A DNA stretch of 64,000 nucleotides, taken from contig JBAYHJ010000001.1 of NCBI GenBank assembly GCA_041666225.1, positions 1,881 to 65,880 on the forward strand, written 5' to 3'. The stretch comes from Minisyncoccota bacterium. GTDB lineage: Bacteria; Patescibacteriota; Minisyncoccia; Phycocordibacterales; UBA9973. Both the position numbers and the translations under genes were made by a program. Shown here in pieces: positions 6,672 through 64,000 of this stretch (position 1 is its first letter; every line of letters begins with the position of its first letter). The notes under the pieces are model-generated. The model saw only the letters and a program-made list of their open reading frames with translations. It searched no databases and had not been told where the DNA came from.

Positions 6672-6677
6672 CACATC

Positions 6678-7745: not shown

Positions 7746-7747
7746 CT

Positions 7748-7777
7748 ATAGTACCCCCCCCAGACATACATTGTCAA
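7748..7777 (-). promoter_or_regulatory. putative poly-G spacer promoter (minus strand ttgaca-N18 incl. G8-tactat)
   Basis: C8 tract 7754..7761 on plus strand. Confidence 0.45.
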
Positions 7778-7824
7778 TAAAGATAAAAATATAAAAAACT
7801 ATCAAACCAACTTTTTTAAAAAAC

Positions 7825-7851
7825 AAAAAATACCCTTTCGGGTATTTTTTG
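7825..7851. terminator. hairpin terminator downstream of rplB (aaaaaataccc-tttc-gggtatttttt)
   Basis: sequence. Confidence 0.65.
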
Positions 7852-7956
7852 TTGATAGAGTTTTTTATTTTTAAGGCTATTTTGCTTTTCCCTGCCCGCC
7901 CTCGTGTACTCGGGAGCAGGCGGGCAACTTTTCGTTCTATTTGATATGACTAAATA

Positions 7957-12154: not shown

Positions 12155-12436
12155 ATATTTTTATTGGTTGATAATTTCCAATTTAATTCTTAATTACTAA
12201 TTCGTAATTCTTAATTAATTAAAAGCTACCAACATAAATTATTAATAAATGTACCTCGCCTGTGGCAAGATAACGCAAAAATTGCGATTGACCTACATAG
12301 TAGCAGATTTAAAAATAAATGCAAATAAAGTTAGAACTTCTACTGACCTCCAAAAATAAACCATATAAAATATAGCCATTCTGGCTGACTCCGAACTTGA
12401 GACAATGTTCAAATGAGGATAACTGAGGTAAAAGAA

Positions 12437-18872: not shown

Positions 18873-18896
18873 TGTTGGAAGTCGGACTTCCAACAT
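18873..18896. repeat. REP2 palindrome tgttggaagtcggacttccaaca
   Basis: copies at 19529..19557, 19773..19800, 58654..58680, 61013..61035; degenerate half-copies at 18632-18650 and 18683-18700. Confidence 0.8.
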
Positions 18897-18900: not shown

Positions 18901-18996
18901 TTAACTTCCAACTTAACTTCCAACTTAACTTCCAACTTAACTTCCAACTTAACTTCCAACTTAACTTCCAACTTAACTTCCAACTTAACTTCCAAC
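18901..18996. repeat. tandem repeat, 12-nt unit ttaacttccaac x8 (derived from REP2 half-site)
   Basis: perfect 8 tandem units; produces the spurious EVKL-repeat ORF 18810..18995. Confidence 0.9.
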
Positions 18997-19024: not shown

Positions 19025-19798
19025 TTATTCTAATGTAGTCCCTGATAAATTATCAATATTAAACGATTCAATCCAGTCGGAAATTTGTTTATACTGTTTA
19101 TCTTCATCTCCAAATAATTCAATCAAAAAATCTTTTTTAATTATCGAGGGAAAATTTTTCTTTCCAATATAATCAAGCAAACTACTCCACCTATAATTCA
19201 AAAGGAATTCTAAAGCTTTTTCAGGGTCAGAAATCTTGCCGTTTCGCCATTCTTTAAATTCAAAGTCGAGTGGATTTAAATGAATATATATAGGGAGGTA
19301 CATAAAGTGTGCATCATTTTCTATGTGAATTGATTTAAATTTGCCCTGGAAAAGCGCTCCGTTTCTTTTGTACTTTTGATTAAAATAATTCGTATAACCA
19401 GTTCCAAGCTTTCTCATAAAATTCGTAATTCCATTTTCTTCTTTTTGTCTAATGAGCATATGAAAATGATTGTCCATCAAACAATAAGCCAAAATCTCCA
19501 CAATCGGCTCTTTCCTCTTGTTTTTTATAATTGTTGGAAGTCCGACTTCCAACAATTTGCTTTGACTTTGGTGACGAGAGATTAAATTATTAATATTAAT
19601 TGAAGGATTTTTATCATTAAATTCATACATATCATGAATAAATCTAAAATTATCTCTTTCATTAATAAAAATATTCCTTTTATCTACCCCTCTGTTGTAA
19701 ATATGATAAATCTCATTTGTGGCAAATTTTGATTTTCTAATTGACATATAACTATTATAACAAATTAAATAAATTGTTGGAAGTCGGACTTCCAACAA
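19025..19798 (-). CDS. REP-associated tyrosine transposase (RAYT), copy 2; probable true start MSIRKSKF at ~19744
   Basis: IYHIYNRGVDKRNIF, HuH CLMDNHFHMLI, C-terminal YRWSSLLDY; REP2 palindrome in-frame at 19529..19557 (LEVGLPTI) and another at the 5' end. Confidence 0.75.
   Translation of the reverse strand: MLEVRLPTIYLICYNSYMSIRKSKFATNEIYHIYNRGVDKRNIFINERDNFRFIHDMYEFNDKNPSININNLISRHQSQSKLLEVGLPTIIKNKRKEPIVEILAYCLMDNHFHMLIRQKEENGITNFMRKLGTGYTNYFNQKYKRNGALFQGKFKSIHIENDAHFMYLPIYIHLNPLDFEFKEWRNGKISDPEKALEFLLNYRWSSLLDYIGKKNFPSIIKKDFLIELFGDEDKQYKQISDWIESFNIDNLSGTTLE
19529..19557. repeat. REP2 palindrome inside RAYT-2 coding sequence
   Basis: aattgttggaagtccgacttccaacaatt. Confidence 0.8.
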
Positions 19799-19800: not shown

Positions 19801-19979
19801 GACTTTTTGGGGTGATTATAATAACATTTGTGAGTAGTAAGTCCGTTCTCGAACCGGGCTTTTATTTTTAGAAAACCATGAAAATGGCTCCTGAAAAAAA
19901 TTTAATAGTTAGTAAAATTTAATAAAAACAATTTTTAATTTTAATAATTTATTTTAATTAATAATTCGTAATAATTCAT

Positions 19980-23300: not shown

Positions 23301-23329
23301 TTAATTTAAAAATTAATTAAATAGATAAT

Positions 23330-23380
23330 AAAAAATCCCCCGCCAACATCTTATGAAGTTGTGGCGGGGGATTTTTTAAT
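23330..23380. terminator. hairpin aaaaaatcccccgcc...ggcgggggatttttt after hppA
   Basis: sequence. Confidence 0.7.
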
Positions 23381-23400
23381 TTACTTTTCTATTCTAATAA

Positions 23401-23802
23401 TTAACCTTTCTTATTCATAAATTTATATACTATATCAATTTGTTCTCTTAACTTTTTACCTTCTTCTGGATTCATTATTTCAGCTGCTCTCACAAAAATT
23501 TCCATATTCTTATATTGAGATATCCACTCCCTATTATTCAAGAGATGATCCTTCACGGATCCAGGTTGTCCTGAGCCGGCTTTTCCTTCTAATATTTCTT
23601 TGGAATTATAAAACAACTTTGTTTTATAACTATTAAAATTACGTTCATAAAGTCTTGAATCTTTTTTATAAACCTCAATCATATTTAAGGTTTCTTTTTC
23701 TGCATTATCCATTATTTCTAAATACGCAGGACTAACATCATTACTCTCCTCTTTTTTACTATCACCCTCATTGTTATTTTGAACTTTATCAAATTGTCCC
23801 AT
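23401..23802 (-). CDS. hypothetical acidic protein
   Basis: 133 aa; immediately downstream of poly-G promoter 23865..23895. Confidence 0.5.
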   Translation of the reverse strand: MGQFDKVQNNNEGDSKKEESNDVSPAYLEIMDNAEKETLNMIEVYKKDSRLYERNFNSYKTKLFYNSKEILEGKAGSGQPGSVKDHLLNNREWISQYKNMEIFVRAAEIMNPEEGKKLREQIDIVYKFMNKKG

Positions 23803-23864
23803 AAATTTTATATTTTAATCCGCCTCAGCAGATAAGTTAATAATGCAAACTTTCTAATACCCTC

Positions 23865-23895
23865 ATTCTACCCCCCCCCTCATATGAGGTGTCAA
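23865..23895 (-). promoter_or_regulatory. putative poly-G spacer promoter (minus strand ttgaca-N19 incl. G9-tagaat)
   Basis: C9 at 23871..23879; ~90-nt block 23803..23895 is ~90% identical to 25402..25494. Confidence 0.5.
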
Positions 23896-23979
23896 GGAAA
23901 ATGTAATGCTTGACAATAATATAGCAATTTTGCTATATTAGTAATAAGTGGTATTTTATGTTGTGATATAATAATATTA

Positions 23980-24285
23980 ATGAATAAATTCAAGGTATTA
24001 TTTATAAATGAAGTTAGAAATTTTATTAATTCGCTTCCAGATGAAGATAAAGGTAAAATCAACTGTGATTCAAATGCTATGGAATTAGGTAATTTTGATT
24101 CCTTATACATCAAAACACTTAGTACTCCTATCAAGGAATTAATTATTAAAAAATACAGACTAATCTTTTTTATAAATAAAAATGAAATCTGGTTTATAGG
24201 AGCATTTATAAAGAAAACTTCCAAAACTCCAAAAAATGAAATAGAAAATGCTAAAAAGTTATACAAAGAAATTATTAATTTATAA
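23980..24285 (+). CDS. HigB/Gp49-like (RelE/ParE superfamily) toxin
   Basis: 101 aa; C-terminal IWFIGAFIKKTSKTPKNEIENAKKLYKEI typical of Gp49/HigB family; plus-strand promoter ttgaca-N18-tatatt at 23914-23943. Confidence 0.6.
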   Translation: MNKFKVLFINEVRNFINSLPDEDKGKINCDSNAMELGNFDSLYIKTLSTPIKELIIKKYRLIFFINKNEIWFIGAFIKKTSKTPKNEIENAKKLYKEIINL

Positions 24286-24295
24286 CAAAAAATAT

Positions 24296-24601
24296 ATGAA
24301 AACAATTAAAACAAAAAATGGTAAAACTTTAAAGTTTTATACTGCAGATGAAGTATTTAAAAAAGATTCAAAATCTAAAGTTTTTGTTGAGGCTTATAAC
24401 GAAGAACTTATTCGGTTAAATCTCGTAGGTGAAATTAAAAAGTTACGACTTGCAAAAAAATATACTCAGAAAGACCTCGCCCAAAAAGCACAAATGCCTC
24501 AATCTGTAATAGCCCGAATAGAGAGTGGAGAACATAGTTTCTCTCTTGGTACTCTTAGCCGTATCGCAAAAGTATTCAAAAAAGAAATACAATTAGTCTA
24601 A
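24296..24601 (+). CDS. XRE-family HTH antitoxin (HigA-like)
   Basis: [33 protein letters not shown]; overlaps/abuts toxin gene. Confidence 0.6.
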
Positions 24602-24611
24602 AATAAAATTC

Positions 24612-24632
24612 CACCGAAGCAAGGCTTCGGTA
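24612..24632. repeat. REP1 palindrome (copy d) abutting the hppA 3' fragment
   Basis: caccgaagcaaggcttcggta. Confidence 0.8.
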
Positions 24633-24635
24633 AAT

Positions 24636-24737
24636 TACAAAGATACCGCAGGACCCGCAATCAATCCAATGATTAAAATATTAAATATCATTGCTCTCAT
24701 TATCGTTCCGATCTTGGTTGCAATTTGGTTTAAATAA
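24636..24737 (+). pseudogene. orphan diverged copy of hppA 3' end (encodes [33 protein letters not shown])
   Basis: ~78% nt identity to 23193..23300, differences mostly synonymous; followed by hairpin terminator 24758..24796. Confidence 0.75.
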
Positions 24738-24757
24738 AATCTAATCGAATTATCAAC

Positions 24758-24796
24758 ATTAAAAAATCCCTCACTCGAGGGATTTTTTAATGTGGG
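24758..24796. terminator. hairpin aaaaaatccctcactcgagggatttttt
   Basis: sequence. Confidence 0.65.
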
Positions 24797-24798: not shown

Positions 24799-25401
24799 TT
24801 ATTTTTCCCCATGGGGAAGTTCTTCAATTGCCTGAGGTCCATCCCAAGCAAAATGCAGATATTTATTTTCTATTTTTTCTTTTAGGGCAAAAGATAAATA
24901 CAAGTTAAACCCTTTTTTGACTGAATCTTGTTCAATTCTTTCTTCTCTATTTTGAATAGAAGTAGAAATATTTTCTGGCCTCTGATTTTGACTCAAATTA
25001 TAAAGAACTGCCTTATCTACATCAGCAACAAAATTAATTTTTTCTAGTTCTTCTTTACTCAACTGATTAACGAATTCTTTAACTATTTTTGGATCTTTTA
25101 TAATTAGAGATTGATATCGACCTCCATTTTTTACATCATTTTCCCAACTTTTATCTTCTTTGTTTACAGGAAATTCTTCTAGAAAAAGATTTTTAAGACT
25201 TTCGACTTTTTCATCTGGAACATAAGAAACTTCTCTGTCTATAAAATCTGCATCTTCATCATTACCGTGATAATCCACAGGTAAAAACCAAGTGTATTTA
25301 TAATTTTCAATTAAATCACTAACCACTTTTCTTATTTTTTGTTTTTCGACAGTATTTTCATCTTTTTTTACTGCTTCGTTTTTATTTAATCCTTCATTCA
25401 T
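24799..25401 (-). CDS. hypothetical acidic protein
   Basis: 200 aa; preceded by poly-G promoter 25464..25494. Confidence 0.5.
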   Translation of the reverse strand: MNEGLNKNEAVKKDENTVEKQKIRKVVSDLIENYKYTWFLPVDYHGNDEDADFIDREVSYVPDEKVESLKNLFLEEFPVNKEDKSWENDVKNGGRYQSLIIKDPKIVKEFVNQLSKEELEKINFVADVDKAVLYNLSQNQRPENISTSIQNREERIEQDSVKKGFNLYLSFALKEKIENKYLHFAWDGPQAIEELPHGEK

Positions 25402-25463
25402 AAATTTTATATTTTAATCTGCCTCAACAGATAGTTAATAATGCAAACTTTTCTAATACCCTC

Positions 25464-25494
25464 ATTCTACCCCCCCCCTCATATAACCTGTCAA
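25464..25494 (-). promoter_or_regulatory. putative poly-G spacer promoter (ttgaca-N19 incl. G9-tagaat), paralog of 23865..23895
   Basis: C9 at 25470..25478. Confidence 0.5.
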
Positions 25495-39967: not shown

Positions 39968-40002
39968 AAATTCCCATAGGTCAGACCTATGGGAATTTTT
40001 TT
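39968..40002. terminator. bidirectional hairpin aaaaattcccataggtc-aga-cctatgggaattttttt
   Basis: sequence. Confidence 0.7.
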
Positions 40003-41725
40003 ATACTACTGTTTTTAAATAATGTTCTTTACAATACAAATTTGGAGTATTCTCACTGTAAGCCGTGATGATTTCTTTATCACATAGAGAGAACGTGCAC
40101 TTCCCTGTTCTAAATATTGGTCCGTTGCGAAGTTTCATACGCTCAGCATGTCTGCAATTGGGGCACTTGGAAGGAAGAGGAATATTGAATCGTTGATAAA
40201 ATCCAAATTCATCGGGAATAATTTTAAAGGCTGTTGCACAATTCTTGTTCTCATCGCCATTATTTTCACATTCTATAATTTCCCCTGTAATGTTTTCAGT
40301 TACTTCAGAAATTAAATCTGGAATATCATCTACCAAAATAGTTGGTTTATAATTTCTTTGCTCTCTTATATACCACTCATACCCCTTCTCTTTTGCAACC
40401 CTTTCATTGAGTGGGAAGAATTCTTGTGCCGTAGTTTCATTATAAGCAAAAGGAGAAAGTTCAGACGGGAAGAATTCCCCATAACCATACGACAGTCCTT
40501 GATTGTCTTTGTAAGGCATCGCTTTCATCTGTTCAATAATTTTCTCTCGCAATATTTTATATTCCTCTTCTGTGTATTCTTTATTTAAAATATAAAATCC
40601 CTTTTTCCTTAAACCAATACAGCCAAACATATCGTGAGAGGTCATAATCTGAATACAATAATCTAGGTTCATATTCTCACTTGCAGAGAACCAAGAAAAA
40701 TTTACTCTTGAACCTCCATTGCCCCCTTGTAGGACTTCATATTGCAACTCAGTATTGAAACCAAATTGAGTATAATCATAACAATCTTTAGTATTTGAAG
40801 CCACTAAATATTGACAATATTTCAGATTACGTCCTTCATGAACAATCCAACTTTCTTTAATATCTTTTGAATTATAAATATAATCTCCTGTTGCATTGTC
40901 GTTCTGCTTTTCATGCATATACTTTGTAATTCCAGTTTTCCAGAATTCAACTACTTTTCTTTTAATATTTTTAATTCCTTTTCTAGAATCCAATTTCAAT
41001 TCTTTCAGTTTTTCCATATAGGCTTCTTTACTACCCATTGGTTCATTGAAAATGCAAAAGCTTTGTTTGCGTAAATTCACACAACCGAAACAATCAGTAC
41101 ATCCATTACAATCACGGCAAAACAGAATATCCGAAGAACTTTCACAATCAATAGAATAAAATGCCCTATAACAATTCTGAATATTCACACATTCATAGCA
41201 CATTTCTCCTTTATCTGTTAGATTAGTATCAAAACAATTTTTAGATTTTTCAACTTCACAGCCATACGAACAATCTTCATTAAAATCAGAATTAAACATT
41301 AGATAACAATTACGAAGATCAAGAACCATATTATTATATGGTGAATTTACCATACGTGATTCATCCACTACAAAGTTCGTCATGAAAGGCACTTCACTCA
41401 TTAATTCTTTATACTGTTCGAAGAATGGCTTTGAGAAATCGTAATCCCTCCCATATTTTGTCGCATCGAAATCATCACCCCACCAGCATTTCTGGCAAAC
41501 TATTTTGGTTTTTCCTCCTGGATGATAAATAGAAATTACATCATTATTACACATTTCACATGTCCTTTTGTATAAAGTTCTGTCATTTCTAAAAGTTAAA
41601 CGACGAATAAGCCGACACTCGGGGCAAAAGGTTGGTGCTGGCACTCCAATTTTCTCATAGAAATCAAAATCTTCACTTTCAATTTCAAAACTTTTTTTAC
41701 ATTGTTGGCAATTTTTTGTTTCCAT
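40001..41725 (-). CDS. cysteine-rich protein with N- and C-terminal zinc-ribbon modules (paralog A)
   Basis: 574 aa; N-terminal CQQC...FYEKIGVPAPTFCPECRLIRRLTFRNDRTLYKRTCEMC repeated near C-terminus (FYQRFNIPLPSKCPNCRHAERMKLRN); central region with dense CxxC/CxC repeats; paralog at 59219..60904. Confidence 0.7.
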   Translation of the reverse strand: METKNCQQCKKSFEIESEDFDFYEKIGVPAPTFCPECRLIRRLTFRNDRTLYKRTCEMCNNDVISIYHPGGKTKIVCQKCWWGDDFDATKYGRDYDFSKPFFEQYKELMSEVPFMTNFVVDESRMVNSPYNNMVLDLRNCYLMFNSDFNEDCSYGCEVEKSKNCFDTNLTDKGEMCYECVNIQNCYRAFYSIDCESSSDILFCRDCNGCTDCFGCVNLRKQSFCIFNEPMGSKEAYMEKLKELKLDSRKGIKNIKRKVVEFWKTGITKYMHEKQNDNATGDYIYNSKDIKESWIVHEGRNLKYCQYLVASNTKDCYDYTQFGFNTELQYEVLQGGNGGSRVNFSWFSASENMNLDYCIQIMTSHDMFGCIGLRKKGFYILNKEYTEEEYKILREKIIEQMKAMPYKDNQGLSYGYGEFFPSELSPFAYNETTAQEFFPLNERVAKEKGYEWYIREQRNYKPTILVDDIPDLISEVTENITGEIIECENNGDENKNCATAFKIIPDEFGFYQRFNIPLPSKCPNCRHAERMKLRNGPIFRTGKCTFSLCDKEIITAYSENTPNLYCKEHYLKTVV

Positions 41726-44879: not shown

Positions 44880-44950
44880 GCGGGATTAGTTTATCGGTAA
44901 AATAACAGTTTTCCAAACTGTGGTGAAGGGTTCGACTCCCTTATCCCGCA
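44880..44950 (+). tRNA. tRNA-Gly (anticodon UCC)
   Basis: acceptor GCGGGAU/AUCCCGC, anticodon stem ACAGU/ACUGU, loop UUUCCAA, T-arm AAGGG-UUCGACU-CCCUU. Confidence 0.85.
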
Positions 44951-45083
44951 CAGAAAAAAATCACCCATTGGGGTGTTTTTTGTGCGGGATAGCAAGTAAA
45001 CTTCTTTACTTGCGTAAGGGAGGCGAAAGATTTTTCTTTATTTTGATTTTAATCAAAATAGAAAAATACCCGAATAGGTTGTA

Positions 45084-45110
45084 TTCGACTCCCTTATCCC
45101 GCACTATAAA
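45084..45110 (+). repeat. direct repeat of the tRNA-Gly(UCC) 3' end (ttcgactcccttatcccgcac), 133 nt downstream of the intact gene
   Basis: 23-nt exact match to 44928..44950; intervening 44951..45083 is hairpin-rich. Confidence 0.75.
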
Positions 45111-56677: not shown

Positions 56678-57040
56678 ATGAATGTTAAAATTTACAAAGA
56701 AAAATTAGAGGAGGAAAAGAAGTTATTAGTAGAAGAACTCGGAGGGCTTGGTCGTGTAGATAAGACAGGGGACTGGGAAGCTGTTCCAGAAAATGAGACA
56801 GCAAGCCAAGAAGTCCCAGATGAAGGAGATCTAGCAGAGAGAGCTGAAGATTATGAAGAACGTTCCATTAAACTCAATACCCTCGAATCAAGACTAGGGG
56901 ATATCAATAAAGCTTTAGAAAAAATCAATAGTGATAATTATGGAATCTGTGAAAATTGCAAAAAAGAAATCGAAGAAGACCGATTAGAAGTAAATCCTGC
57001 AGCTAAAACATGCAAGGATTGTATGGAAAAAGTGTTATAA
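56678..57040 (+). CDS. DksA/TraR-family C4 zinc-finger protein
   Basis: 120 aa; CENCKKEI...CKDCMEK; terminator 57044-57077. Confidence 0.7.
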   Translation: MNVKIYKEKLEEEKKLLVEELGGLGRVDKTGDWEAVPENETASQEVPDEGDLAERAEDYEERSIKLNTLESRLGDINKALEKINSDNYGICENCKKEIEEDRLEVNPAAKTCKDCMEKVL

Positions 57041-57086
57041 ATTAAAACCCCCAAAACAATTATTTTGGGGGTTTTACATTAAATAT

Positions 57087-58655
57087 ATGTCATTCTCGAG
57101 AATTTATTCAGCACAAACACATTTATTAAAAGGAAAAATTGTAACTATTGAAGTTGATATTACAAAAAAGACTCTTCACTCTTTTACTTTAGTTGGGCTG
57201 CCAGATAAAGCTGTCGACGAATCAAAAGACCGAATGAGTTCTGCTTTAAAAAACTCAGGATACAATTCTCCTAAAAATCAAAATCAAAAAATTGTTATTT
57301 CACTTTCTCCAGCTGATCTTAAAAAAGAGGGGCCATATTTTGATTTAGCAATTGCGCTTTCTTACCTTCTTTCTGCCGAAGAAATAAATTTTAATCCTGA
57401 TGGAAGAATTTTTCTGGGAGAATTGTCATTAAACGGTGAACTACGTCCCATAAAAGGGGCATTGCCATTAACTCAAGAAGCTAAAAAACTTGGTTATAAA
57501 GAAATATTCTTACCAATTGAAAATGCTGAAGAGGCTGCGCTTGTGGATGATATTAAAATATATGGAGCAAAAAATCTAAAAGAAGTAATTGATCATATTT
57601 ATATACCAAAGACAGATAAAAAGGGTAATTTAATAGAAAAAGAAAGACCCAAAATATCTATCTTCCCAAAAACTGAAATCCTACACAAAGAAAGATCTGG
57701 GAATATTGATTTTTCAGATATCAAAGGTCAAGAAGGGGCAAAAAGGGGACTTGAGATAGCAGCTAGTGGTGGACACAATATCGCTATGTCTGGCCCACCT
57801 GGTACAGGGAAAACAATGTTGGCGCGCGTTTTTTCGCACATTCTTCCCGATTTAGAAAAAGATGATTGTTTAGAAATTACAGGAATACACTCAGTTGTTG
57901 GACTACTTGAAGATGCATTAATTACCGAATCCCCCTTTCGTGCTCCGCACCATACCGCAAGTTATGTCTCAATGATTGGAGGTGGAACAAATCCAAAACC
58001 GGGAGAGGTTACACTTGCACACCGTGGAGTTTTATTTCTCGATGAATTTCCAGAATTTGAAAAAAGGGTTTTAGAAGCTCTTCGCCAGCCACTTGAAGAC
58101 AATGTCGTCTCAATTTCTCGCGCCCGTGGTTCAGCGATTTTTCCATCAAATTTTATCCTCGTTGCGGCAATGAATCCTTGTCCTTGTGGAAATAAAGGCA
58201 ACAAACAAAAAGAGTGTATTTGTAAACCAATTGATTTAGATCGGTATAAAAGAAAACTCTCAGGTCCTATAATGGATCGAATTGATATTTGGGTTACAGT
58301 TAGCAATGTAGATTATGAAAAGCTTTCAAATAACACACAGGAAGGTGAAAAAACTTTTACGATAAAAGAAAGGGTCAAAAAAGCTCGTGATATTCAAAAT
58401 AAACGGTTTAAAAATGCGGAGAGAAAAATAAACACAAATAGTGAAATAAATGTAAAAGAATTAAATATTTACGCTCCACTTGATAATGAAACAAAAAAAT
58501 TACTAAACCAAAGTGCTGAGCGCCTACAACTCTCAGCCCGAGCCTACCACCGCACCATCAAACTCGCTCGCACCATCGCCGACCTAGAAGGTAGTGAAAA
58601 TATAACTCAATCTCATATCTTGGAAGCACTCCAATACAGACCAAGAGAAAATTAA
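57087..58655 (+). CDS. comM: ComM/YifB-family Mg-chelatase-like AAA+ ATPase
   Basis: 522 aa; Walker A GPPGTGKT, Walker B VLFLDEFPEF, C-terminal ChlI-like domain. Confidence 0.85.
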   Translation: MSFSRIYSAQTHLLKGKIVTIEVDITKKTLHSFTLVGLPDKAVDESKDRMSSALKNSGYNSPKNQNQKIVISLSPADLKKEGPYFDLAIALSYLLSAEEINFNPDGRIFLGELSLNGELRPIKGALPLTQEAKKLGYKEIFLPIENAEEAALVDDIKIYGAKNLKEVIDHIYIPKTDKKGNLIEKERPKISIFPKTEILHKERSGNIDFSDIKGQEGAKRGLEIAASGGHNIAMSGPPGTGKTMLARVFSHILPDLEKDDCLEITGIHSVVGLLEDALITESPFRAPHHTASYVSMIGGGTNPKPGEVTLAHRGVLFLDEFPEFEKRVLEALRQPLEDNVVSISRARGSAIFPSNFILVAAMNPCPCGNKGNKQKECICKPIDLDRYKRKLSGPIMDRIDIWVTVSNVDYEKLSNNTQEGEKTFTIKERVKKARDIQNKRFKNAERKINTNSEINVKELNIYAPLDNETKKLLNQSAERLQLSARAYHRTIKLARTIADLEGSENITQSHILEALQYRPREN

Positions 58656-58680
58656 TGTTGGAAGTCGGACTTCCAACATT
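58654..58680. repeat. REP2 palindrome immediately after the comM stop codon
   Basis: aatgttggaagtcggacttccaacatt. Confidence 0.8.
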
Positions 58681-58799
58681 TTAAATTTCTTTATCGAGGC
58701 GCTTGGCTTCAGCCCAAGAAAGTTCGTAAATTTTTTTCATCGCATCAGCAATTTCAGCATTATTTTGTAAAGCTAATAAAAGATGTATTATTAATAGAT

Positions 58800-59210
58800 A
58801 TGGAAGAAAAAAGACACAACTCAATGCTCATTCCCTATTATTTTAAAAAAAATAATCTTTATGTTTTCTTACAAAGAAGAAATGATGACGCTCCAAGAAA
58901 CCCAAATATCTTAGGTGGATTCGGTGGAGGATTAGAAGGAGAAGAAAATAATGAGGATGCATTAATACGAGAAATGAATGAAGAATTAGAATATACTCCA
59001 AAAAATTATTCCCTTCTCGGAACTTTTGAAACTGATCATTCAATATCTAATTACTACATCGAAGAAGTCGATGAAAATTTTGAGAACAATGTTATTGTGC
59101 ATGAAGGAAAGAGAGGAGAATGGCATGAGGCAATAAAAGTTGTTGAGAGAGACGATATTAGTCCAAACACGAAAAGAGTTATTAATTCAATAATTTTAAA
59201 ATTTCGTTAA
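58800..59210 (+). CDS. Nudix-family hydrolase (divergent)
   Basis: 136 aa; GGFGGGLEGEENNEDALIREMNEEL approximates the Nudix box; 8-nt gap to the next gene. Confidence 0.55.
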   Translation: MEEKRHNSMLIPYYFKKNNLYVFLQRRNDDAPRNPNILGGFGGGLEGEENNEDALIREMNEELEYTPKNYSLLGTFETDHSISNYYIEEVDENFENNVIVHEGKRGEWHEAIKVVERDDISPNTKRVINSIILKFR

Positions 59211-59218
59211 TAAATTAT

Positions 59219-60904
59219 ATGACAAAAGAAAAATGCAAAACATGTGAGAAAGATTTTGTAATAAGAGATGAAGATCTTGTTTTTTATGAACAAATGAAAA
59301 CAGTCCCTCCAGTTGATTGCCCTGATTGTCGTATGGCAAGAAGGTTAGTTTTTCGCAATGAAAGAACCTTATATAAAAGAACTTGTGATCTTTGTAAAAA
59401 AGATATGGTCGCTTTGTATACTCAAGAATCAAAATTTAAAGTTTACTGTCATGATTGTTGGTGGAGCGATAATTGGAATCCAAAAGATTATGCACAAGAT
59501 TATGATTTCTCAAAAACATTTTTTGAACAGTTTAGAGAATTAATGATGAAAGTTCCACGGATTGGAATGCTGGCATTTAATAATGTTCGAAGTGAATACA
59601 CAAATGGCTCAGCCGAAAACAAAGATTGTTATTTAATTTTTGCAGCTGATTATAATGAGGACTGCTTATATAGCAGATTACTTCAACGTGACAAGGGTTG
59701 TGTAGATTGCGCCTTCCTCCATGAATCAGAGTTGTGTTATGAATGTATCGATACTCGAAAATGTTTTAAATGTATGTATTCGGAACAATGTCAGTCATCA
59801 AGTGATTTATTGTTTTGTTTTAATATGAGAGATTCTCAAAATTGTATTTTTTGTACAAATGGCAGGCATATGTCGAACTATATTCTAAATCAAAAGTGTA
59901 CAAAAGAAGAATATGATAAAAAGAAAAAAGAAATACTTTCAAATTATGAAAGTATTGAAAAAGCTAAAAAAGAATTTATAGAAATAAAAAAGAAGGCTAT
60001 CATGAAATTTACTTCTCAAAGTAAGTGCCACAATGTTACAGGGGACTATATTCACAACTGTTATGATGGAGTTAGGCTTTATGACACTTATGATGCAAAA
60101 AATTGTTCTTATATGAAGGACACCGAGAACCCAACTGACAGCTGGGATTGTAATAATTATTATTACAAATGTCAGTTTGGTTACAATATAATGGGCGCAT
60201 TACAAATTAGTAATTGTAAAAATTGTGCTTTTGTATTTTATTCGAATAATCTGGAATATTGTGAAAATTGTTATCATCTATCAAATGGATTTGGTTGTCT
60301 CGCAATTCGTAAGGGTCAAAATATGATTTTAAATAAAGAATATGAAAAAGAAGAATACCTAAAAATAAGAAAACAAATTGAGGATGAAATGAAAAAAGAT
60401 GGAACTTGGGGTCAATATTTCCCTGCAAGCATCGCTCCTTTCTCATACAACGAAGCGCTCTCACAAGACTTCTTTCCTTTATCAAAAGAAGAAGCAATAA
60501 AAAGAGGTTTTACTTGGCAAGAAAAAACAACTGGAACTTACGGAAAAGAAACCATCGAAAAAGGAGAAATTCCTAATTCTATAGAAAAGGTTACCGAAGC
60601 TATTTTAAAAGAAATTTTAGTTTGTGAAGATTGTAATAAAAATTATCGCCTTGTCCAAGCTGAATTGGAATTTTACAAAAGAATGAATTTACCAATCCCT
60701 CATAAAGATTTTGAGTGTCGTCATCAAGATAGAATGAAAAAAAGAAACACAAAAGAACTTTACCCTCGTTCATGTATGTGTAAAAACGAAAAACATATAA
60801 ATCACAATGGCGTTAATTGTTCAGAAAAACTTGAGACAACTTATGCTCCAGACCGACCAGAAATAATTTATTGTGAAAGTTGTTATCAACAAGAAGTAGC
60901 ATAG
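59219..60904 (+). CDS. cysteine-rich protein with terminal zinc-ribbon modules (paralog B)
   Basis: 561 aa; CKTCEKDF...FYEQMKTVPPVDCPDCRMARRLVFRNERTLYKRTC; same architecture as 40001..41725. Confidence 0.7.
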   Translation: MTKEKCKTCEKDFVIRDEDLVFYEQMKTVPPVDCPDCRMARRLVFRNERTLYKRTCDLCKKDMVALYTQESKFKVYCHDCWWSDNWNPKDYAQDYDFSKTFFEQFRELMMKVPRIGMLAFNNVRSEYTNGSAENKDCYLIFAADYNEDCLYSRLLQRDKGCVDCAFLHESELCYECIDTRKCFKCMYSEQCQSSSDLLFCFNMRDSQNCIFCTNGRHMSNYILNQKCTKEEYDKKKKEILSNYESIEKAKKEFIEIKKKAIMKFTSQSKCHNVTGDYIHNCYDGVRLYDTYDAKNCSYMKDTENPTDSWDCNNYYYKCQFGYNIMGALQISNCKNCAFVFYSNNLEYCENCYHLSNGFGCLAIRKGQNMILNKEYEKEEYLKIRKQIEDEMKKDGTWGQYFPASIAPFSYNEALSQDFFPLSKEEAIKRGFTWQEKTTGTYGKETIEKGEIPNSIEKVTEAILKEILVCEDCNKNYRLVQAELEFYKRMNLPIPHKDFECRHQDRMKKRNTKELYPRSCMCKNEKHINHNGVNCSEKLETTYAPDRPEIIYCESCYQQEVA

Positions 60905-60936
60905 ATAATTAAAAATGAAGAATTAGGAATTGAAAA

Positions 60937-60975
60937 CACGCATCTACGCTATAGCGTAGATGCGTGTTTTTGTTT
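60937..60975. terminator. 28-nt perfect palindrome acgcatctacgctatagcgtagatgcgt + T-run
   Basis: sequence. Confidence 0.7.
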
Positions 60976-61012
60976 ATCTTTTCTTGGCTGAGTATGGGGC
61001 AGTGTCAGGAGT

Positions 61013-61035
61013 GTTGGAAGTCGGACTTCCAACAT
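61013..61035. repeat. REP2 palindrome followed (61047..61080) by a ~30-nt duplicate of the 3' end of the upstream Cys-rich gene (ttattgtgaaagttgttatcaaca)
   Basis: match to 60869..60892. Confidence 0.75.
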
Positions 61036-61163
61036 TTTAGATCTCTTTATTGTGAAAGTTGTTATCAACAGGAGATATATTAGATGGGGATCAAAAAGAG
61101 CGGGTTGGCTTCGCCAACCCGCTCTTTTAATTAGTAATTAGTAATTTTTAATTAGTAATTATT

Positions 61164-62288
61164 CTAAAACGGTGGTCGCATCTTGGAACCATTAGCATTT
61201 TCTATTTCAAAGTGAAGATGTGGGCCAGTAGATAAACCAGTGTTTCCAAGTGATCCGATTTTATCCCCTTGAGCAACAGTTTCACCCATCTTAACATTTA
61301 CCTTACTCAAATGACCGTATCGAGTCATAGTTCCATTTGGATGTTCTATATCAATATAATTTCCATATCCACCACCGCAACCTCTCTTTCCTTCTTTACA
61401 ACCAGTAACAACCTTAGAAACAACACCGGAAGCGGCAGCCACAATTTGAGTTCCGCGAACATTTCCAAAGTCTATCCCCGGATGAAACCCTCTTCGTCTT
61501 GATCCATACGGAGATGTAACAATTCCAACTACTGGTCTTAGATAATAACCAGATGGGGCTTTTGTATTTGATGATTTAGTAGAAACTGGATTCTTTGTAT
61601 TTGAAGAAGGTGTAGGCTTTGCAACAACTGGTTTAATAATACCGTTTGGAACAAAGATTATATCTCCTTGCTTGAGATCTCCGTTTGAAATATCGTTGAA
61701 TATTGATATATCTTCAGATTCAGCTTCATATTTATCTGCAATCTTACTTAAAGTATCACCCTTTTTAACAACATGCTTTACTCCAGTAACAGGCAGAATA
61801 TTGAGCTTTTGGCCAACAGAAATCTTTGGGCTAGTAATATTATTTTCCCAACGAATTGTATTTACTGAAACATTAAAATATTCAGCAATTCCTGACAAAG
61901 TATCACCTTCTTTAACTGTGTAAACATTAATCTGGTCAGAAATTGAGCTTTTTTCAAAAGAAACATCCGGCCCCGGCCCAAAAATACCATCACTGTAGAT
62001 AAATGAGTCATCTTGAACTATCACAATATCTTCTTTATCATTTGTATTTTTAAGATCTGGATTAACCGAAGACTCTAAAAGAGGAATATTTTGGGAGTTA
62101 TGGATAACACTATTATCTATTTGAGGGGCAACTTCATTTGCTGTTACCTCGGTACCCAACACCATTGATGTTAAATCAGAAAAAAAGCTGGCATTTGCCA
62201 ACGTTGGAACTCCAAATATCATAGAAAGGGCTACAAAAAAAGAAGAAACCTTTATAATAGAAGGCTTGTAAGATAAGGCTATTTTCAT
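61164..62288 (-). CDS. M23-family peptidase with two LysM domains
   Basis: 374 aa; LysM (YTVKEGDTLSGIAEYF; VKKGDTLSKIADKY); M23 HPGIDFG...GHL...HLHFEI. Confidence 0.85.
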   Translation of the reverse strand: MKIALSYKPSIIKVSSFFVALSMIFGVPTLANASFFSDLTSMVLGTEVTANEVAPQIDNSVIHNSQNIPLLESSVNPDLKNTNDKEDIVIVQDDSFIYSDGIFGPGPDVSFEKSSISDQINVYTVKEGDTLSGIAEYFNVSVNTIRWENNITSPKISVGQKLNILPVTGVKHVVKKGDTLSKIADKYEAESEDISIFNDISNGDLKQGDIIFVPNGIIKPVVAKPTPSSNTKNPVSTKSSNTKAPSGYYLRPVVGIVTSPYGSRRRGFHPGIDFGNVRGTQIVAAASGVVSKVVTGCKEGKRGCGGGYGNYIDIEHPNGTMTRYGHLSKVNVKMGETVAQGDKIGSLGNTGLSTGPHLHFEIENANGSKMRPPF

Positions 62289-62801
62289 CGGATGATAACC
62301 TTCTTGCGAATAGCTATCTTCAGAATCTTTTATTTGAGGTTGAATAAGCCTAAATAAAGTAATTACACTATTTTACCCCTTGTTGAGGAATACAGTACGA
62401 CCGCATTAAGCGAGGGCTGTAATTATAAGTAAAATTGGCGTAATTGTTACAATCGTCTCAGAAATGTCTTTGTAAATAAAGCTCTTTTTGGATTTTCTGT
62501 AATATAAGACCCATACCAAAGGTCCTATACTTATAGGGTAGCCCAGATCAGTTTTATAGTCAACGAAGTAATCCACAGAGTTATATCACGACACAAATGC
62601 TGTTTTTGGCAAAAAGAACTACTTGACAGATACAACCCAGTATGCTATACTATAGGTAGAGCTTTAAGTTCTTTAATAAATTTCATTTTATTGATTTGGA
62701 AGTAATTCAATTAGTAAAAAGTCCTAAATTATTAAAAATATTTAGTAATTTGAGACTTTTTACTAATCCAAAATAATTATAAACCCAAAAAATCAAACAA
62801 A

Positions 62802-63296
62802 ATGAAAACACTTTATTGGATCATCATTATTTTTGTAGTAGTCGTAGTAGCATCTTTTGTAACGTTTACTGTGGCAAAACCACAAGTGACCAAAACGGCA
62901 CAAAAGGAATTCAACGATTCAATCACAAAAATTAACAAAATTGCCAGGGAAAGAATTGCCAAAGCCGATGCTGATCTCACAAAGGGAGTAGGAGAAGCAA
63001 TGCAAACAGCAAATGACGAAAAGGCAAAAGCAAAATTATTGTCAGATTCCCTTGATAAGGTGAATGCCGCCCTTGCTATCGCAACTGCAACCCCGGCCGC
63101 AAAAGCAAAAGCTGCCGCCGATGCTAAAGCAAAAATAGCTGCAGAAAAAGCCGCCGCAAAAGCCTATGCGAAAAAGATCAAAGGCCACCCGGCATTAGAT
63201 GATGACGAGGAGACATTTACTTGTTTAAAGTCGGATTCGGCTTCATTCTACTATTTAGCTCCAAGTGGGTATGAAATAATAATACTCCCCCAATAG
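62802..63296 (+). CDS. hypothetical N-terminally anchored Ala/Lys-rich protein
   Basis: 164 aa; TM IIIIFVVVVVASFVTFTV; terminator 63305-63345. Confidence 0.5.
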   Translation: MKTLYWIIIIFVVVVVASFVTFTVAKPQVTKTAQKEFNDSITKINKIARERIAKADADLTKGVGEAMQTANDEKAKAKLLSDSLDKVNAALAIATATPAAKAKAAADAKAKIAAEKAAAKAYAKKIKGHPALDDDEETFTCLKSDSASFYYLAPSGYEIIILPQ

Positions 63297-63391
63297 TTAG
63301 TAACAGGTAAAAAAAGAATAAGCCGGACTCATCCATGAGCCCGGCTTAATTATTTTTTATAAGAGAAATTATGTTAAAATAAAAAAGTAAT

Positions 63392-64000
63392 ATGATGAAG
63401 GTAGAAAAACCTATAAATAAAATAGAAGAAAACTCAAATTATGAATTTTTAAAGAATGAAATAGAAAAAGGTATTTCGAGCACTCCAGAAGGTAAAGATA
63501 AAAAAACGCATCTTTTGGAAATTTTAAATATGGATTATGGTATAGATTTGAGTCAAAAAATAATAGAATCCTTACCAAGTGATTATTTTGATAATATAGA
63601 AGAAACAAAAAAAGAAATTCCACCCATGGTAAGTGAAGAAAAAAATGAAACAAGACTAGAAGATACTCTAAAAAATGATTTCAAATTGCCAGCTGATAAA
63701 ATAAATGAGGTCAAAAAAGACCCACGAATAAAAAAAATATTAAAAATTGGAATATTTAGTGCACTAACTGTTGCTTCTATTGTTGGAATATTAAAAACAT
63801 CTGATTTTAAAAAGGGGGAGAAAGAAAATAATTTAGATAAAACAATAAGTTTTGACAAAAGATTTAGTGGGGAAATATATGCAACACTCCCCGAAGAAGG
63901 GAAGGATATTTATAAATACATGGCCGAAGAAAATCCAACTCCTGAAAGGTGGTACCAGGTGTTAGATAAAGACAGTGCAGTAATTTATGTTTTTAATTCA
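63392..64000 (+). CDS. hypothetical protein, partial (open to window end); C-terminal TM segment
   Basis: ATG at 63392, no stop through 64000 (MMKVEKPINKIEENSNYEF...); overlapping minus-strand ORFs 63411..63653 and 63583..63858 judged spurious. Confidence 0.45.
   Translation, partial: MMKVEKPINKIEENSNYEFLKNEIEKGISSTPEGKDKKTHLLEILNMDYGIDLSQKIIESLPSDYFDNIEETKKEIPPMVSEEKNETRLEDTLKNDFKLPADKINEVKKDPRIKKILKIGIFSALTVASIVGILKTSDFKKGEKENNLDKTISFDKRFSGEIYATLPEEGKDIYKYMAEENPTPERWYQVLDKDSAVIYVFNS

What the first reader, a model, noticed from the sequence alone, without database searches (positions are those of the whole stretch)
58654..61080. REP2 insertions exactly at gene 3' ends, one with a ~30-nt target duplication
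REP2 follows the comM stop codon directly (58654..58680). At 61013..61035 REP2 is followed by a copy of the last ~25 nt of the upstream Cys-rich gene (ttattgtgaaagttgttatcaaca at 61048-61071, matching 60869-60892). This is a miniature version of the 3'-end duplications at rplB, hppA and tRNA-Gly, and it suggests a common insertion mechanism that copies the target gene end.
Basis: seen in the sequence. Interest (0 to 1): 0.6.

Follow-up and report, generated by a model that had tools for sequence, protein, structure and literature searches.

The report
Recombination scar beside a REP palindrome
A short palindromic repeat (REP2) with its own transposase-like gene sits at gene ends in this tiny-genome bacterium, and the "duplicated" gene end next to one copy is a leftover fragment of a different allele left by recombination with foreign DNA, not a duplication made by the repeat inserting.

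Summary
REP2 (TGTTGGAAGTC[G/C]GACTTCCAACA) abuts the comM stop codon. A second copy at 61012 is followed by a copy of the Cys-rich gene's end: 25/25 nt identical, then 6/15 different, same frame, own stop.

REP2 is an ordinary REP. A Y1/HUH transposase gene (RAYT, 19025-19798) in the same window is flanked by REP2 copies.

REP2 insertion does not duplicate its target. Among 28 copies with full flanks from more than 15 genomes, only this one has a long flanking repeat.

The downstream copy encodes ...YCESCYQQEIY*, a natural alternative C-terminus of this gene family. Relatives lack the ~160-180 bp that holds a second terminator, REP2 and the relic. This REP2 copy also carries 16 nt of a TrmB-family gene's end, joined to the relic at a TTTAT microhomology.

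Best reading: a scar of homology-anchored illegitimate recombination with a diverged allele, with REP2 as passenger or end-defining hairpin.

The layout "gene end, insert, REP, relic" recurs at hppA (with REP1) and in a Saccharibacteria MAG (with REP2). Moderate interest.

The parts
57087..58655 (+). comM/YifB-type Mg-chelatase-like ATPase gene. Its TAA stop (58653-58655) abuts REP2.
   Evidence: Pfam Mg_chelatase, ChlI and Mg_chelatase_C. NCBI name of the protein.
58654..58680 (.). REP2 copy 1 (core 58656-58678), wedged between two convergent stop codons. Scores as terminator-like on both strands.
   Evidence: (-18.7 kcal/mol, z = -5.2). Relative L023 has an unrelated 26-nt hairpin in exactly this slot.
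58681..58758 (-). Relic of the 3' end of a TrmB-family regulator gene (last 25 codons plus stop). The rest of the gene is deleted.
   Evidence: The translation AEIADAMKKIYELSWAEAKRLDKEI* is 100% identical to the C-termini of the TrmB genes of L002, L003 and L023.
58800..59210 (+). NUDIX hydrolase gene. It follows a promoter region that sits directly upstream of the Cys-rich gene in L002.
   Evidence: Pfam NUDIX. Sequence comparison with L002 4950-4990.
59219..60904 (+). Conserved Cys-rich 561-aa gene (hypothetical protein, widespread in Paceibacterota), ending ...YCESCYQQEVA*.
   Evidence: 3452 homologues. NCBI MFA6514700.1.
60764..60904 (+). 3' segment of the Cys-rich gene that resembles the '561-aa type' alleles rather than the closest relatives. 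Possible imported part.
   Evidence: The body is 89% / 85% identical to P0001 / P0122, but the last 62 aa only 60% / 56%, against 76% to 561-aa-type proteins. A 30-nt indel and an identity drop mark the boundary. Informative sites 192:93 to the left versus 10:22 to the right, p = 1.4e-4.
60867..60906 (+). Gene-end copy A, the functional end of the gene (stop TAG at 60902-60904).
60931..60972 (+). Terminator hairpin T1 (19-bp perfect stem plus T run). Absent from all relatives.
   Evidence: (-29.1 kcal/mol).
60971..61011 (.). Unique 41-nt stretch of unknown origin between T1 and REP2.
   Evidence: No match in the window or in any fetched locus except L001, which is the same strain.
61012..61034 (.). 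REP2 copy 2.
61035..61050 (-). 16-nt fragment of a TrmB-family gene end (KEI*, two synonymous changes) that travelled with REP2. Its last 5 nt (TTTAT) overlap the relic as junction microhomology.
   Evidence: 39-nt repeat 58656-58694 / 61012-61050 at 95% identity. 14/16 flank identity, p ~ 2e-5. This flank is absent from all other REP2 copies.
61046..61085 (+). Relic gene end A': codons (L)YCESCYQQEIY* (61045-61083), an alternative allele of the Cys-rich gene's end.
   Evidence: The ...YCESCYQQEIY ending occurs in orthologues P0017 and P0025, and QKEIY in the closest relative P0001.
61094..61128 (+). Terminator hairpin T2, orthologous to the single terminator of relatives L021 and L023.
   Evidence: -28.7 kcal/mol.
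61164..62288 (-). LysM / M23 peptidase gene, the conserved convergent neighbour.
   Evidence: Pfam. Synteny in L002, L003, L021, L022 and L023.
19025..19798 (-). RAYT (Y1 HUH transposase) gene, probable start ATG at 19747. It is flanked by REP2 at 18873-18895 and 19775-19797 and has an in-frame REP2 inside it at 19532-19554.
   Evidence: Pfam Y1_Tnp 40.5 bits against a cut-off of 23. Conserved YHIYNRG, NHFH, Y..YFN and YIHLNP motifs. Best PDB profile hit 4ER8 TnpA_REP, E = 0.035.

Best explanation
REP2 is the repetitive extragenic palindrome of a RAYT (REP-associated Y1/HUH transposase) system. As REPs usually do, it sits in the very short spacers after stop codons. At comM it stands where relatives have a plain hairpin between convergent genes, and it probably serves as a bidirectional terminator or 3'-end stabiliser.

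The repeated gene end at 61046-61085 is not a target-site duplication made by REP2. It is a non-functional relic of another allele of the Cys-rich gene's 3' end. It arose when about 160-300 bp of DNA from a diverged relative was recombined into the gene's 3' end and its spacer. That DNA carried its own gene end and/or terminator T1, 41 unique nt, and a REP2 copy still attached to the last four codons of a TrmB-type gene.

One side of the exchange was homologous, within the conserved gene. The other side was an illegitimate join at a 5-nt microhomology (TTTAT), 11-16 nt 3' of the REP2 hairpin. This is homology-facilitated illegitimate recombination, or a close variant of it, most plausibly on transforming single-stranded DNA. 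It re-used a stretch of the recipient gene and so produced the duplication. REP2 was a passenger. At most, its hairpin fixed where the incoming strand ended.

Shown: the anatomy; the absence of the insert in relatives; the allelic nature of the relic; the co-transfer of REP2 with a TrmB end; the microhomology; and the lack of duplications at other REP2 copies.

Inferred: the direction of transfer (which end is native), the single-strand/transformation route, and any role of the hairpin or of the RAYT.
For: REP2 as a REP/RAYT system:
- Five copies in the window, 0 expected.
- RAYT with a Y1_Tnp domain flanked by REP2.
- 45 non-redundant copies in other genomes, enriched within 30 nt after stops (24% versus 5%, p = 1.7e-5).
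- L023 has an unrelated hairpin, and L002 a different REP family plus its RAYT, in the same comM/TrmB slot.

Not a target-site duplication:
- Only 1 of 28 REP2 copies with full flanks has a long flanking direct repeat. 26 are at the 7-12 nt background and one 17-mer lies in repetitive coding sequence.
- Flank BLAST over +/-4-5 kb adds only the L020/L031 case.

Allelic relic:
- 0/25 then 6/15 mismatches, p = 0.0013. Frame and stop are kept.
- Both EVA and EIY endings are natural among 120 orthologues.
- The rplB relic has 10 differences, all synonymous, 9 of them in the last 28 nt. In the hppA relic 14 of 17 differing codons are synonymous.

Insert absent in relatives:
- The spacer from the Cys-rich gene to the M23 gene is 259 bp here, against 42-132 bp in six relatives.
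- L021 has stop + AT-rich arm + T2. L023 has stop + 10 nt + T2. None has T1, REP2 or a second gene end.

REP2 as part of a copied block:
- 39-nt repeat at 95% identity. The extra 16 nt encode KEI*, with two synonymous changes.
- No other REP2 copy has that flank.

Other support:
- The TTTAT overlap at the junction fits the 3-10 bp microhomology described for HFIR (PMC3240628).
- Mosaic gene 3' end.
- At hppA, the 97%-identical relative L043 gives an empty site with the same layout of insertion.
Against: - No donor sequence was found. T1 and the 41 nt match nothing fetched.
- Which gene end is native is ambiguous. L021 suggests that A + arm + T2 is native. L023 and P0001 suggest that A' + 9 nt + T2 is native. 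At hppA the gene-attached end looks native and the relic looks foreign.
- Classical HFIR usually gives a deletion in the recipient, not a duplication (PMC3240628).
- The 25/25 identity is only partly explained by strong conservation and codon bias. Relatives differ at 3-6 of these 25 nt.
- A REP lies within 15 nt or less of the relic in three independent cases. That is more than a passive passenger would predict. My rough estimate for 2 of the 3-4 relics in this window is p ~ 1e-3 to 3e-5.
- The mosaic p-value is modest once the scan over breakpoints is allowed for.
Confidence: 0.55

Rival explanations
1. REP-ended mobile cassette. The RAYT, or another single-strand DNA enzyme, mobilises segments whose right end is a REP hairpin plus about 5-15 nt, as at the right end of IS200/IS605 elements. 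It pastes them into the 3' ends of conserved genes. The cassette carries a replacement gene end and terminator, and a stretch of the target is duplicated.
For: - Three independent junctions of the type 'REP, then 15 nt or less, then relic': REP2 at 61012, REP1 at 24612 and REP2 at L020:5429.
- In the two REP2 cases the junction lies 11-16 nt and 13 nt from the core.
- The left boundary of the copied REP2 block coincides with the edge of REP2.
- RAYTs cleave a few nt 5' or 3' of REPs and transfer strands in vitro (PMC8266576).
- In the rplB and Cys-rich cases an identical block followed by a diverged tail is what a true duplication of recipient sequence plus a foreign tail would give.
Against: - About 45 other REP2 copies show no duplication.
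- There is no REP or related hairpin at the left end of any insert.
- The rplB relic has no hairpin at its junction.
- REP2 orientation (central base) relative to the gene is opposite in the window and in L020, whereas RAYTs distinguish REP from inverted REP.
- The 16-nt flank is a piece of another gene, not an element end.
- IS200/IS605-type transposition makes no target duplication (established knowledge).
Confidence: 0.15
2. Remnant of a site-specific integrative element. An integrase-bearing island once integrated into the gene's 3' end through a 25-nt att core and supplied a replacement end, as at tRNA genes. Later deletion left about 180 bp.
For: - Identical 25-nt core at both ends, replacement end with its own stop and terminator, and a target at a gene 3' end.
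- A 21-nt duplication of the tRNA-Gly 3' end in the same window.
- The cargo at hppA is a Gp49/HigB-like plus HTH toxin-antitoxin pair, typical island cargo.
Against: - There is no integrase in or next to any of the inserts.
- A Campbell-type crossover predicts that the 5' blocks of the two copies come from different parents. At rplB, 119 nt are identical while the tail differs at 9 of 28 nt.
- The junction microhomology with a TrmB gene end points to an illegitimate join, not an att site.
Confidence: 0.1
3. In-situ segmental duplication followed by deletion and conversion. A tandem duplication of the unit from REP2/TrmB to the Cys-rich gene took place. The second unit was then deleted between two TTTAT microhomologies. 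Later allelic replacement of the first copy's end followed.
For: - The 39-nt direct repeats (REP2 + 16 nt) are 2356 nt apart and bracket exactly the unit TrmB relic - NUDIX - Cys-rich gene.
- TTTAT is present at both would-be deletion end points.
- The region is rearrangement-prone in relatives.
Against: - It requires at least three steps.
- The sequences after A (T1, 41 nt) and after A' (9 nt, T2) are unrelated.
- No relative has T1 or the 41 nt.
- The differences between the REP2 flanks and between the gene ends look selected (synonymous, or natural variants) rather than random decay.
Confidence: 0.1
4. Chance repeat.
For: None beyond the AT-rich, codon-biased composition.
Against: - 0 of 100 shuffles give the 25-mer twice.
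- 0 of 50 shuffles give any 20-mer repeated within 500 nt.
- Frame, stop and a natural C-terminal variant are all preserved.
Confidence: 0.01

Closest known systems
REP / RAYT (TnpA_REP) systems of Proteobacteria, such as E. coli REP-yafM and Pseudomonas REPINs
   Same: - Short, stable palindrome in multiple copies, mostly just after genes.
- A single Y1 HUH transposase-like gene bracketed by copies of the same palindrome.
- Conserved HUH and Tyr-region motifs.
- The hairpins can act as terminators or 3'-end stabilisers.
   Different: - The host is a Patescibacteria (Paceibacterota) MAG.
- There is no GT(A/G)G head, and the palindrome is nearly perfect, so its orientation is set by one central base.
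- Copies are singlets, not REPIN doublets or BIMEs.
- Copy number is low (5 in 64 kb).
- The exact 23-nt core is shared by MAGs of different CPR classes.
- The RAYT gene carries an in-frame internal copy of its own REP.
Homology-facilitated illegitimate recombination (HFIR) during natural transformation (S. pneumoniae, A. baylyi, P. stutzeri)
   Same: - Foreign DNA enters next to a conserved gene that provides the homology.
- The other junction uses a 3-10 bp microhomology (here TTTAT).
- The result is a small strain-specific insert.
   Different: - Classical HFIR usually deletes recipient DNA. Here 25-125 nt of the recipient gene end appears duplicated.
- The illegitimate junction lies just 3' of a REP hairpin in 2 of the 3 protein-gene cases in this window.
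- Nothing was tested experimentally.
attL/attR duplications of tRNA or protein-gene 3' ends by integrase-mediated genomic islands
   Same: - Direct repeat of a gene's 3' end bracketing inserted DNA.
- The proximal copy keeps the gene intact.
   Different: - No integrase is present.
- The insert is only about 180 bp.
- The copies have diverged tails.
- The junction shows microhomology with an unrelated gene end.
Right-end subterminal hairpins of IS200/IS605 elements and their miniature derivatives (PATEs)
   Same: - A hairpin lies about 10 nt inside the right boundary of the inserted DNA.
- A Y1 HUH enzyme is encoded in the genome.
   Different: - There is no matching left-end hairpin.
- Those elements make no target duplication.
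- The inserts differ in sequence from one another.

Membership tests
REP / RAYT (REPtron) | Short palindromic repeat present in multiple, mostly extragenic copies | tested here: met
   5 copies in the window with 0 expected. 31 further loci in public genomes and metagenomes. 24% lie within 30 nt after a stop, against 5% of random positions. Some copies are in frame inside ORFs.
REP / RAYT (REPtron) | Cognate Y1 (HUH) transposase-like gene physically bracketed by the REPs | tested here: met
   ORF 19025-19798(-): Pfam Y1_Tnp 40.5 bits against a cut-off of 23. REP2 at 18873 and 19775. The same arrangement occurs in L012 and L014. Profile hit to 4ER8 TnpA_REP, but only at E = 0.035.
REP / RAYT (REPtron) | The two flanking REPs are in inverted orientation (PMC2817692) | tested here: inconclusive
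   REP2 is a perfect palindrome except for its central base. By that base, the window's flanking copies have the same orientation and the internal copy is inverted, whereas L012's flanking copies are inverted.
REP / RAYT (REPtron) | Conserved GT(A/G)G head next to the palindrome (PMC2817692, PMC8266576) | tested here: not met
   The flanks of about 50 REP2 copies vary (aaat/attt, ccac/gtgg, ttaa/ttaa...) and none shows a GTAG head.
REP / RAYT (REPtron) | RAYT cleaves and joins single-stranded REP DNA | not testable with these tools
   Needs purified protein and a cleavage/strand-transfer assay, as in PMC8266576.
Transposon-type target-site duplication | Every (or most) insertions are flanked by a direct repeat of characteristic length | tested here: not met
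   The longest flank repeat is 7-12 nt (background) for 26 of 28 copies. Flank BLAST over +/-4-5 kb finds only window 61012 and L020/L031.
Transposon-type target-site duplication | The two copies are identical at birth and later differences are random | tested here: not met
   0/25 versus 6/15 mismatches (p = 0.0013). The changes give a natural alternative C-terminus. The rplB and hppA relics differ mostly at synonymous sites.
Homology-facilitated illegitimate recombination scar | Inserted DNA is absent from close relatives and adjoins a conserved gene that can anchor homology | tested here: met
   Six relatives lack T1, REP2 and the relic. At hppA the L043 empty site shows the same layout.
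Homology-facilitated illegitimate recombination scar | 3-10 bp microhomology at the illegitimate junction (PMC3240628) | tested here: met
   TTTAT is shared by the TrmB-end fragment and the start of the relic (61046-61050).
Homology-facilitated illegitimate recombination scar | Homologous exchange on the other side (mosaic gene) | tested here: inconclusive
   The C-terminal ~45 codons are of a different allele type from the body. Informative-site p = 1.4e-4 before correction for the breakpoint scan. The 25-nt identity and the L021 layout allow other readings.
Homology-facilitated illegitimate recombination scar | Dependence on RecA and DNA uptake | not testable with these tools
   Only the presence of a comM homologue was seen.
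Integrase-mediated island at a gene 3' end | Tyrosine or serine integrase encoded in or next to the insert | tested here: not met
   The ORFs and Pfam hits of the inserts are a NUDIX hydrolase, a toxin-antitoxin pair and unknowns. No integrase was found.
Integrase-mediated island at a gene 3' end | Identical att core bracketing the insert | tested here: met
   25-nt identical block.

The most novel reading that the evidence does not exclude
In CPR bacteria, REP hairpins, cut by their RAYT or simply blocking exonucleases on incoming single-stranded DNA, define the 3' ends of foreign DNA segments. These segments are pasted into the 3' ends of conserved genes. The paste duplicates 25-125 nt of the target and supplies a replacement stop codon and terminator. 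This would be a REP-bounded, homology-anchored cassette-insertion route. It would explain the REP-relic junctions at the Cys-rich gene, at hppA and in a Saccharibacteria MAG.
Probability: 0.15. Interest if true: 0.7.

Novelty: new member of a known kind. Interest (0 to 1): 0.4.

Why it matters
REP/RAYT systems have mostly been described in Proteobacteria. In the paper library I could search, no paper ranked near the top linked them to Patescibacteria. Here one REP family has an identical 23-nt core across several CPR classes, together with its RAYT.

The relic gene ends show that these minimal genomes take up small cassettes by recombination anchored in conserved genes. Four relics were found in 64 kb: rplB, hppA, tRNA-Gly and the Cys-rich gene. 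This fits the view, general knowledge rather than anything tested here, that such bacteria rely on DNA uptake.

If REP hairpins really fix where the incoming DNA ends, a domesticated transposase system would be linked to horizontal gene acquisition. Practically, relics like this one are pseudo-gene fragments that annotation pipelines and assemblers can mishandle.

Tried and rejected
- Rfam scan of 58400-61400: nothing reached a gathering score. The weak L20-leader and miRNA hits are just the terminator hairpins.
- Single-sequence PDB search with the RAYT: no hit. The profile search gave only a weak hit to TnpA_REP.
- Donor search: T1 and the 41-nt stretch match nothing in any fetched locus.
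- REP2 in IMG/VR viral contigs: none.
- L008 and L034 flank repeats: these turned out to be paralogous upstream regions or intergenic repeats, not gene-end relics.
- Second tRNA behind tRNA-Gly: not supported by ARAGORN or Rfam.
- AT-rich 'arms' flanking the terminators as orthology markers: rejected. The same AATTMNTAATT motif recurs at several unrelated intergenic sites.
- Pure Campbell/integrase model: disfavoured by the pattern of an identical block followed by a diverged tail at rplB.
- L047: an independent assembly of the identical strain ends 8 nt inside the relic. I could not tell whether this reflects population heterogeneity.

Full report
**What is there.**
The window comes from a Candidatus Paceibacterota MAG. 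The Cys-rich protein is NCBI MFA6514700.1, on a contig of 131,138 nt.

The stretch 57087-62288 reads as follows:
- comM-type ATPase gene (+).
- REP2.
- A 25-codon relic of a TrmB-family gene (-).
- NUDIX gene (+).
- A conserved 561-aa Cys-rich gene (+).
- A 259-bp spacer.
- LysM/M23 peptidase gene (-).

The REP2 core TGTTGGAAGTC[G/C]GACTTCCAACA occurs five times in the window, at 18873, 19532, 19775, 58656 and 61012, with 0 expected by chance.

It extends to 40 nt at 85% identity. It occurs nowhere else, even allowing three mismatches. No 20-mer repeated within 500 nt appeared in 50 dinucleotide shuffles.

**What REP2 is.**
The ORF 19025-19798(-) has a Y1_Tnp (IS200-like HUH) domain above Pfam's threshold. 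It is bracketed by REP2 copies. Aligned with four relatives, it shows the conserved YHIYNRG, NHFH, Y..YFN..R.G.F.G.FK and YIHxNP motifs. A profile of these sequences finds E. coli TnpA_REP (4ER8) as its best PDB match, although only at E = 0.035. This is the architecture of a REP/RAYT unit (PMC2817692).

The exact 23-mer also occurs in 16 loci of GTDB species representatives and in 15 metagenome contigs. These include Saccharibacteria, Portnoybacteria and other Patescibacteria MAGs. It does not occur in IMG/VR.

Among 45 non-redundant copies, 24% lie within 30 nt after the stop of a long ORF, against 5% of random positions (odds ratio 6, p = 1.7e-5). 'REP2 at gene 3' ends' is therefore true, and it is the normal habit of REPs.

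At comM, the palindrome 58654-58680 includes the AA of the TAA stop. It is followed at once by the stop of the TrmB relic. The relic's 25 codons are 100% identical to the C-termini of the intact TrmB genes of L002, L003 and L023. Relative L023 has an unrelated 26-nt hairpin in exactly this slot. L002 has a different REP family with its own RAYT there. REP2 folds stably and scores as terminator-like on both strands.

**REP2 insertion does not duplicate its target.**
- For 28 REP2 copies with full flanks, the longest direct repeat between the 200-nt flanks was 7-12 nt, the same as at 400 random positions. The exceptions were window 61012 (25 nt) and a 17-mer inside a repetitive coding region of L014.
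- BLAST of 80-90-nt flanks against +/-4-5 kb found only three real cases. These are window 61012, the REP1 copy at 24612 (hppA), and L020:5429, which is repeated in L031, the same organism.
- Two other candidates, L008 and L034, were unrelated repeats.

**The second gene end is another allele, not a fresh copy.**
- In frame, copy A reads IYCESCYQQEVA* and copy A' reads (L)YCESCYQQEIY*.
- Mismatches run 0 of 25 and then 6 of 15 (Fisher p = 0.0013). Two are synonymous. The others give V to I and A to Y.
- Both endings are real C-termini among the 120 best orthologues. YCESCYQQEIY occurs in P0017 and P0025, QKEIY in the closest relative P0001, and QQEVA in P0004, P0014 and P0122.
- A systematic tblastn of every long ORF's last 50 residues against its downstream 3.5 kb found exactly three such relics in the window: rplB, hppA and this one.
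- The rplB relic encodes 50 identical residues with 10 nucleotide differences, all synonymous, 9 of them in the last 28 nt. In the hppA relic 14 of 17 differing codons are synonymous.

Such differences accumulate in functional genes in separate lineages, not in a decaying local copy.

**What relatives show.**
The order comM ... Cys-rich gene, then convergent M23 gene, is conserved in L002, L003/L004, L021, L022 and L023. The spacer from the Cys-rich gene to the M23 gene is 42-132 bp in relatives, against 259 bp here.
- L021 reads stop (EVA*) + 31-nt AT-rich arm + a terminator clearly orthologous to T2 (61094-61128).
- L023 reads stop (EVY*) + 10 nt + the same terminator.
- None has T1 (60931-60972), the unique 41 nt, REP2 or a second gene end.

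The window therefore carries about 160-180 extra bp. Because of the repeat, the insert can be written in two ways. It is either [T1, 41 nt, REP2, 11 nt, A', 9 nt] placed into an L021-like spacer, or [A, arm, T1, 41 nt, REP2, 11 nt] placed ahead of an L023-like end.

**The REP2 copy at 61012 came as part of a block.**
The two REP2 copies share 39 nt. The 16 nt beyond the core (TTTTAAATTTCTTTAT versus TTTTAGATCTCTTTAT) are the reverse complement of the TrmB gene's last codons, K-E-I-stop. Their two differences are synonymous. No other REP2 copy in any genome has this flank. The last five of these nt, TTTAT, are also the first five of the relic. The junction is thus a 5-nt microhomology. The left boundary of the block coincides with the edge of REP2.

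**A mosaic gene.**
- The first 480 residues are 89% and 85% identical to the two cluster mates P0001 and P0122, which are 551 and 550 aa long.
- The last 62 residues are only 60% and 56% identical to them. They are 76% identical to proteins of the 561-aa type, with which the window shares a 10-codon segment.
- Informative sites (L002 versus L003) switch from 192:93 to 10:22 at about 60764 (p = 1.4e-4, uncorrected for scanning breakpoints).
- This suggests that the present 3' end of the gene was imported. It is not conclusive, because P0122 combines the short form with a QQEVA ending.

**Mechanism.**
The simplest account is recombination with DNA from a diverged relative, homologous on one side and illegitimate on the other. 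HFIR is defined in just this way and shows 3-10 bp microhomologies. In E. coli, related events often duplicated part of the homologous segment (PMC3240628).

The rplB and Cys-rich relics both show an identical block followed by a diverged tail. This fits a re-used stretch of recipient sequence plus a foreign tail. It fits less well a Campbell-type or integrase crossover, in which the two blocks would come from different parents.

At hppA, the 97%-identical relative L043 gives an empty site. Its spacer matches the window's spacer after the functional end. Its terminator matches the window's terminator after the relic. The insert is [terminator, a 133-aa gene, a Gp49/HigB-like + HTH pair, REP1, relic, 28 nt]. 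There the relic resembles more distant alleles (..[12 protein letters not shown]), while the functional end matches the closest relatives. Relics can evidently travel with their cassettes through later homologous exchange.

In the window, two of the three protein-gene relics begin 11 nt or less after a REP. The Saccharibacteria MAG L020 has REP2, 13 nt, then a 34-nt perfect copy of a dnaX-like gene end. A tRNA and a DUF2806 gene lie between the real gene end and REP2. This is more than chance proximity would give.

A REP hairpin may set the 3' end of the incoming strand, either by blocking exonucleases or through cleavage by the RAYT. RAYTs cut a few nt from REPs and transfer strands in vitro (PMC8266576).

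Against an enzyme-defined end:
- REP2's orientation relative to the gene is opposite in the two REP2 cases.
- No insert has a matching left-end hairpin.
- The rplB junction has no hairpin.
- About 45 other REP2 copies show nothing of the kind.

**Verdict.**
There is a recurrent 'insert ending in a REP, followed by a second gene end' layout. The second end, however, is a recombination relic of another allele, not a target duplication made by REP2.

REP2/RAYT is a new member of a known kind in an under-studied phylum. The scar is a known kind of event. The possible end-defining role of REPs is the only potentially new element, and it rests on three cases.

Noticed in passing
window 19532-19554 (inside RAYT 19025-19798); window 6257-6277 (inside the second RAYT-like gene 5820-6548); L012 3996; L014 1453-2172: Each RAYT gene carries an in-frame copy of its own cognate REP inside the ORF. 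REP2 encodes LLEVGLPTI, and REP1 encodes LPKQGFGR. In the alignment these are insertions in variable loops, and they are conserved between distant genomes. This may help explain why the REP2 core is identical across CPR classes.
   Followed up: partly
window 18901-18996: Eight tandem 12-nt units, TTAACTTCCAAC, lie directly next to REP2 at 18873. Each unit is a half-REP2 arm.
   Followed up: no
window 5820-8109: rplB (7957-8799, minus strand) is followed by three end fragments. The first is a short one (7868-7925) split by a GC-rich palindrome. Next come a 242-aa ORF of unknown function (7017-7745) and a 153-nt relic (6733-6885) that encodes 50 identical residues with only synonymous changes. 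A REP1-RAYT-REP1 unit (5821-6593) lies after that.
   Followed up: partly
window 23301-24795: The hppA insert holds its own terminator, a 133-aa gene with a duplicated promoter region (23800-23895 = 25399-25494), a Gp49/HigB-like + HTH_3 toxin-antitoxin pair, REP1 (24612-24632) and a 33-codon hppA relic. Relative L043 has the empty site.
   Followed up: yes
window 44880-45103: The 21-nt 3' end of tRNA-Gly(tcc) is repeated at 45083-45103, with an inverted 11-nt copy near 44980. ARAGORN and Rfam detect no second tRNA.
   Followed up: partly
L001 1-340 versus window 56934-57273: An ENA contig from another sample is identical to the window from 57273 onward. Upstream it is diverged, first at third codon positions and then completely. 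This is a recombination breakpoint inside comM between co-occurring strains.
   Followed up: no
L047 (Logan SRR6484324) versus window 61054-64000: An independent assembly of the identical strain is 100% identical over 2947 nt. Its contig ends 8 nt inside the relic gene end. This may hint at population heterogeneity at the site.
   Followed up: no
window 40001-41725 (minus strand): A 574-aa paralogue of the Cys-rich gene (36% identity, E = 2e-122) lies in the same window. The family has no Pfam assignment beyond a weak treble-clef zinc-finger hit.
   Followed up: partly
L002 2797-3522: In the closest relative, a different REP family (AAACTCTTGAGGCAAGGCCTAAAGAGTTT) with its own RAYT occupies the same comM/TrmB slot. 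That REP overlaps the comM stop and changes the protein's end from REN* to RENS*.
   Followed up: partly
L014 2196-2658; L027 1778, 4103: REP2 copies lie in frame inside large repetitive surface-protein genes (peptide VGSPTSN / LEVGLPT), so REP2 is not strictly extragenic.
   Followed up: no
window 857-897, 1123-1164, 12182-12218, 19952-19979, 60906-60935, 61125-61162: An AT-rich motif built from AATTMNTAATT units recurs in intergenic spacers, often as inverted arms around terminators.
   Followed up: no
L020 6414-6540: In the Saccharibacteria MAG, a 20-nt copy of a tRNA's 5' end plus two GC-rich hairpins lies between the dnaX-like stop and the full tRNA. This is another mini-insertion with a flanking duplication.
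   Followed up: no
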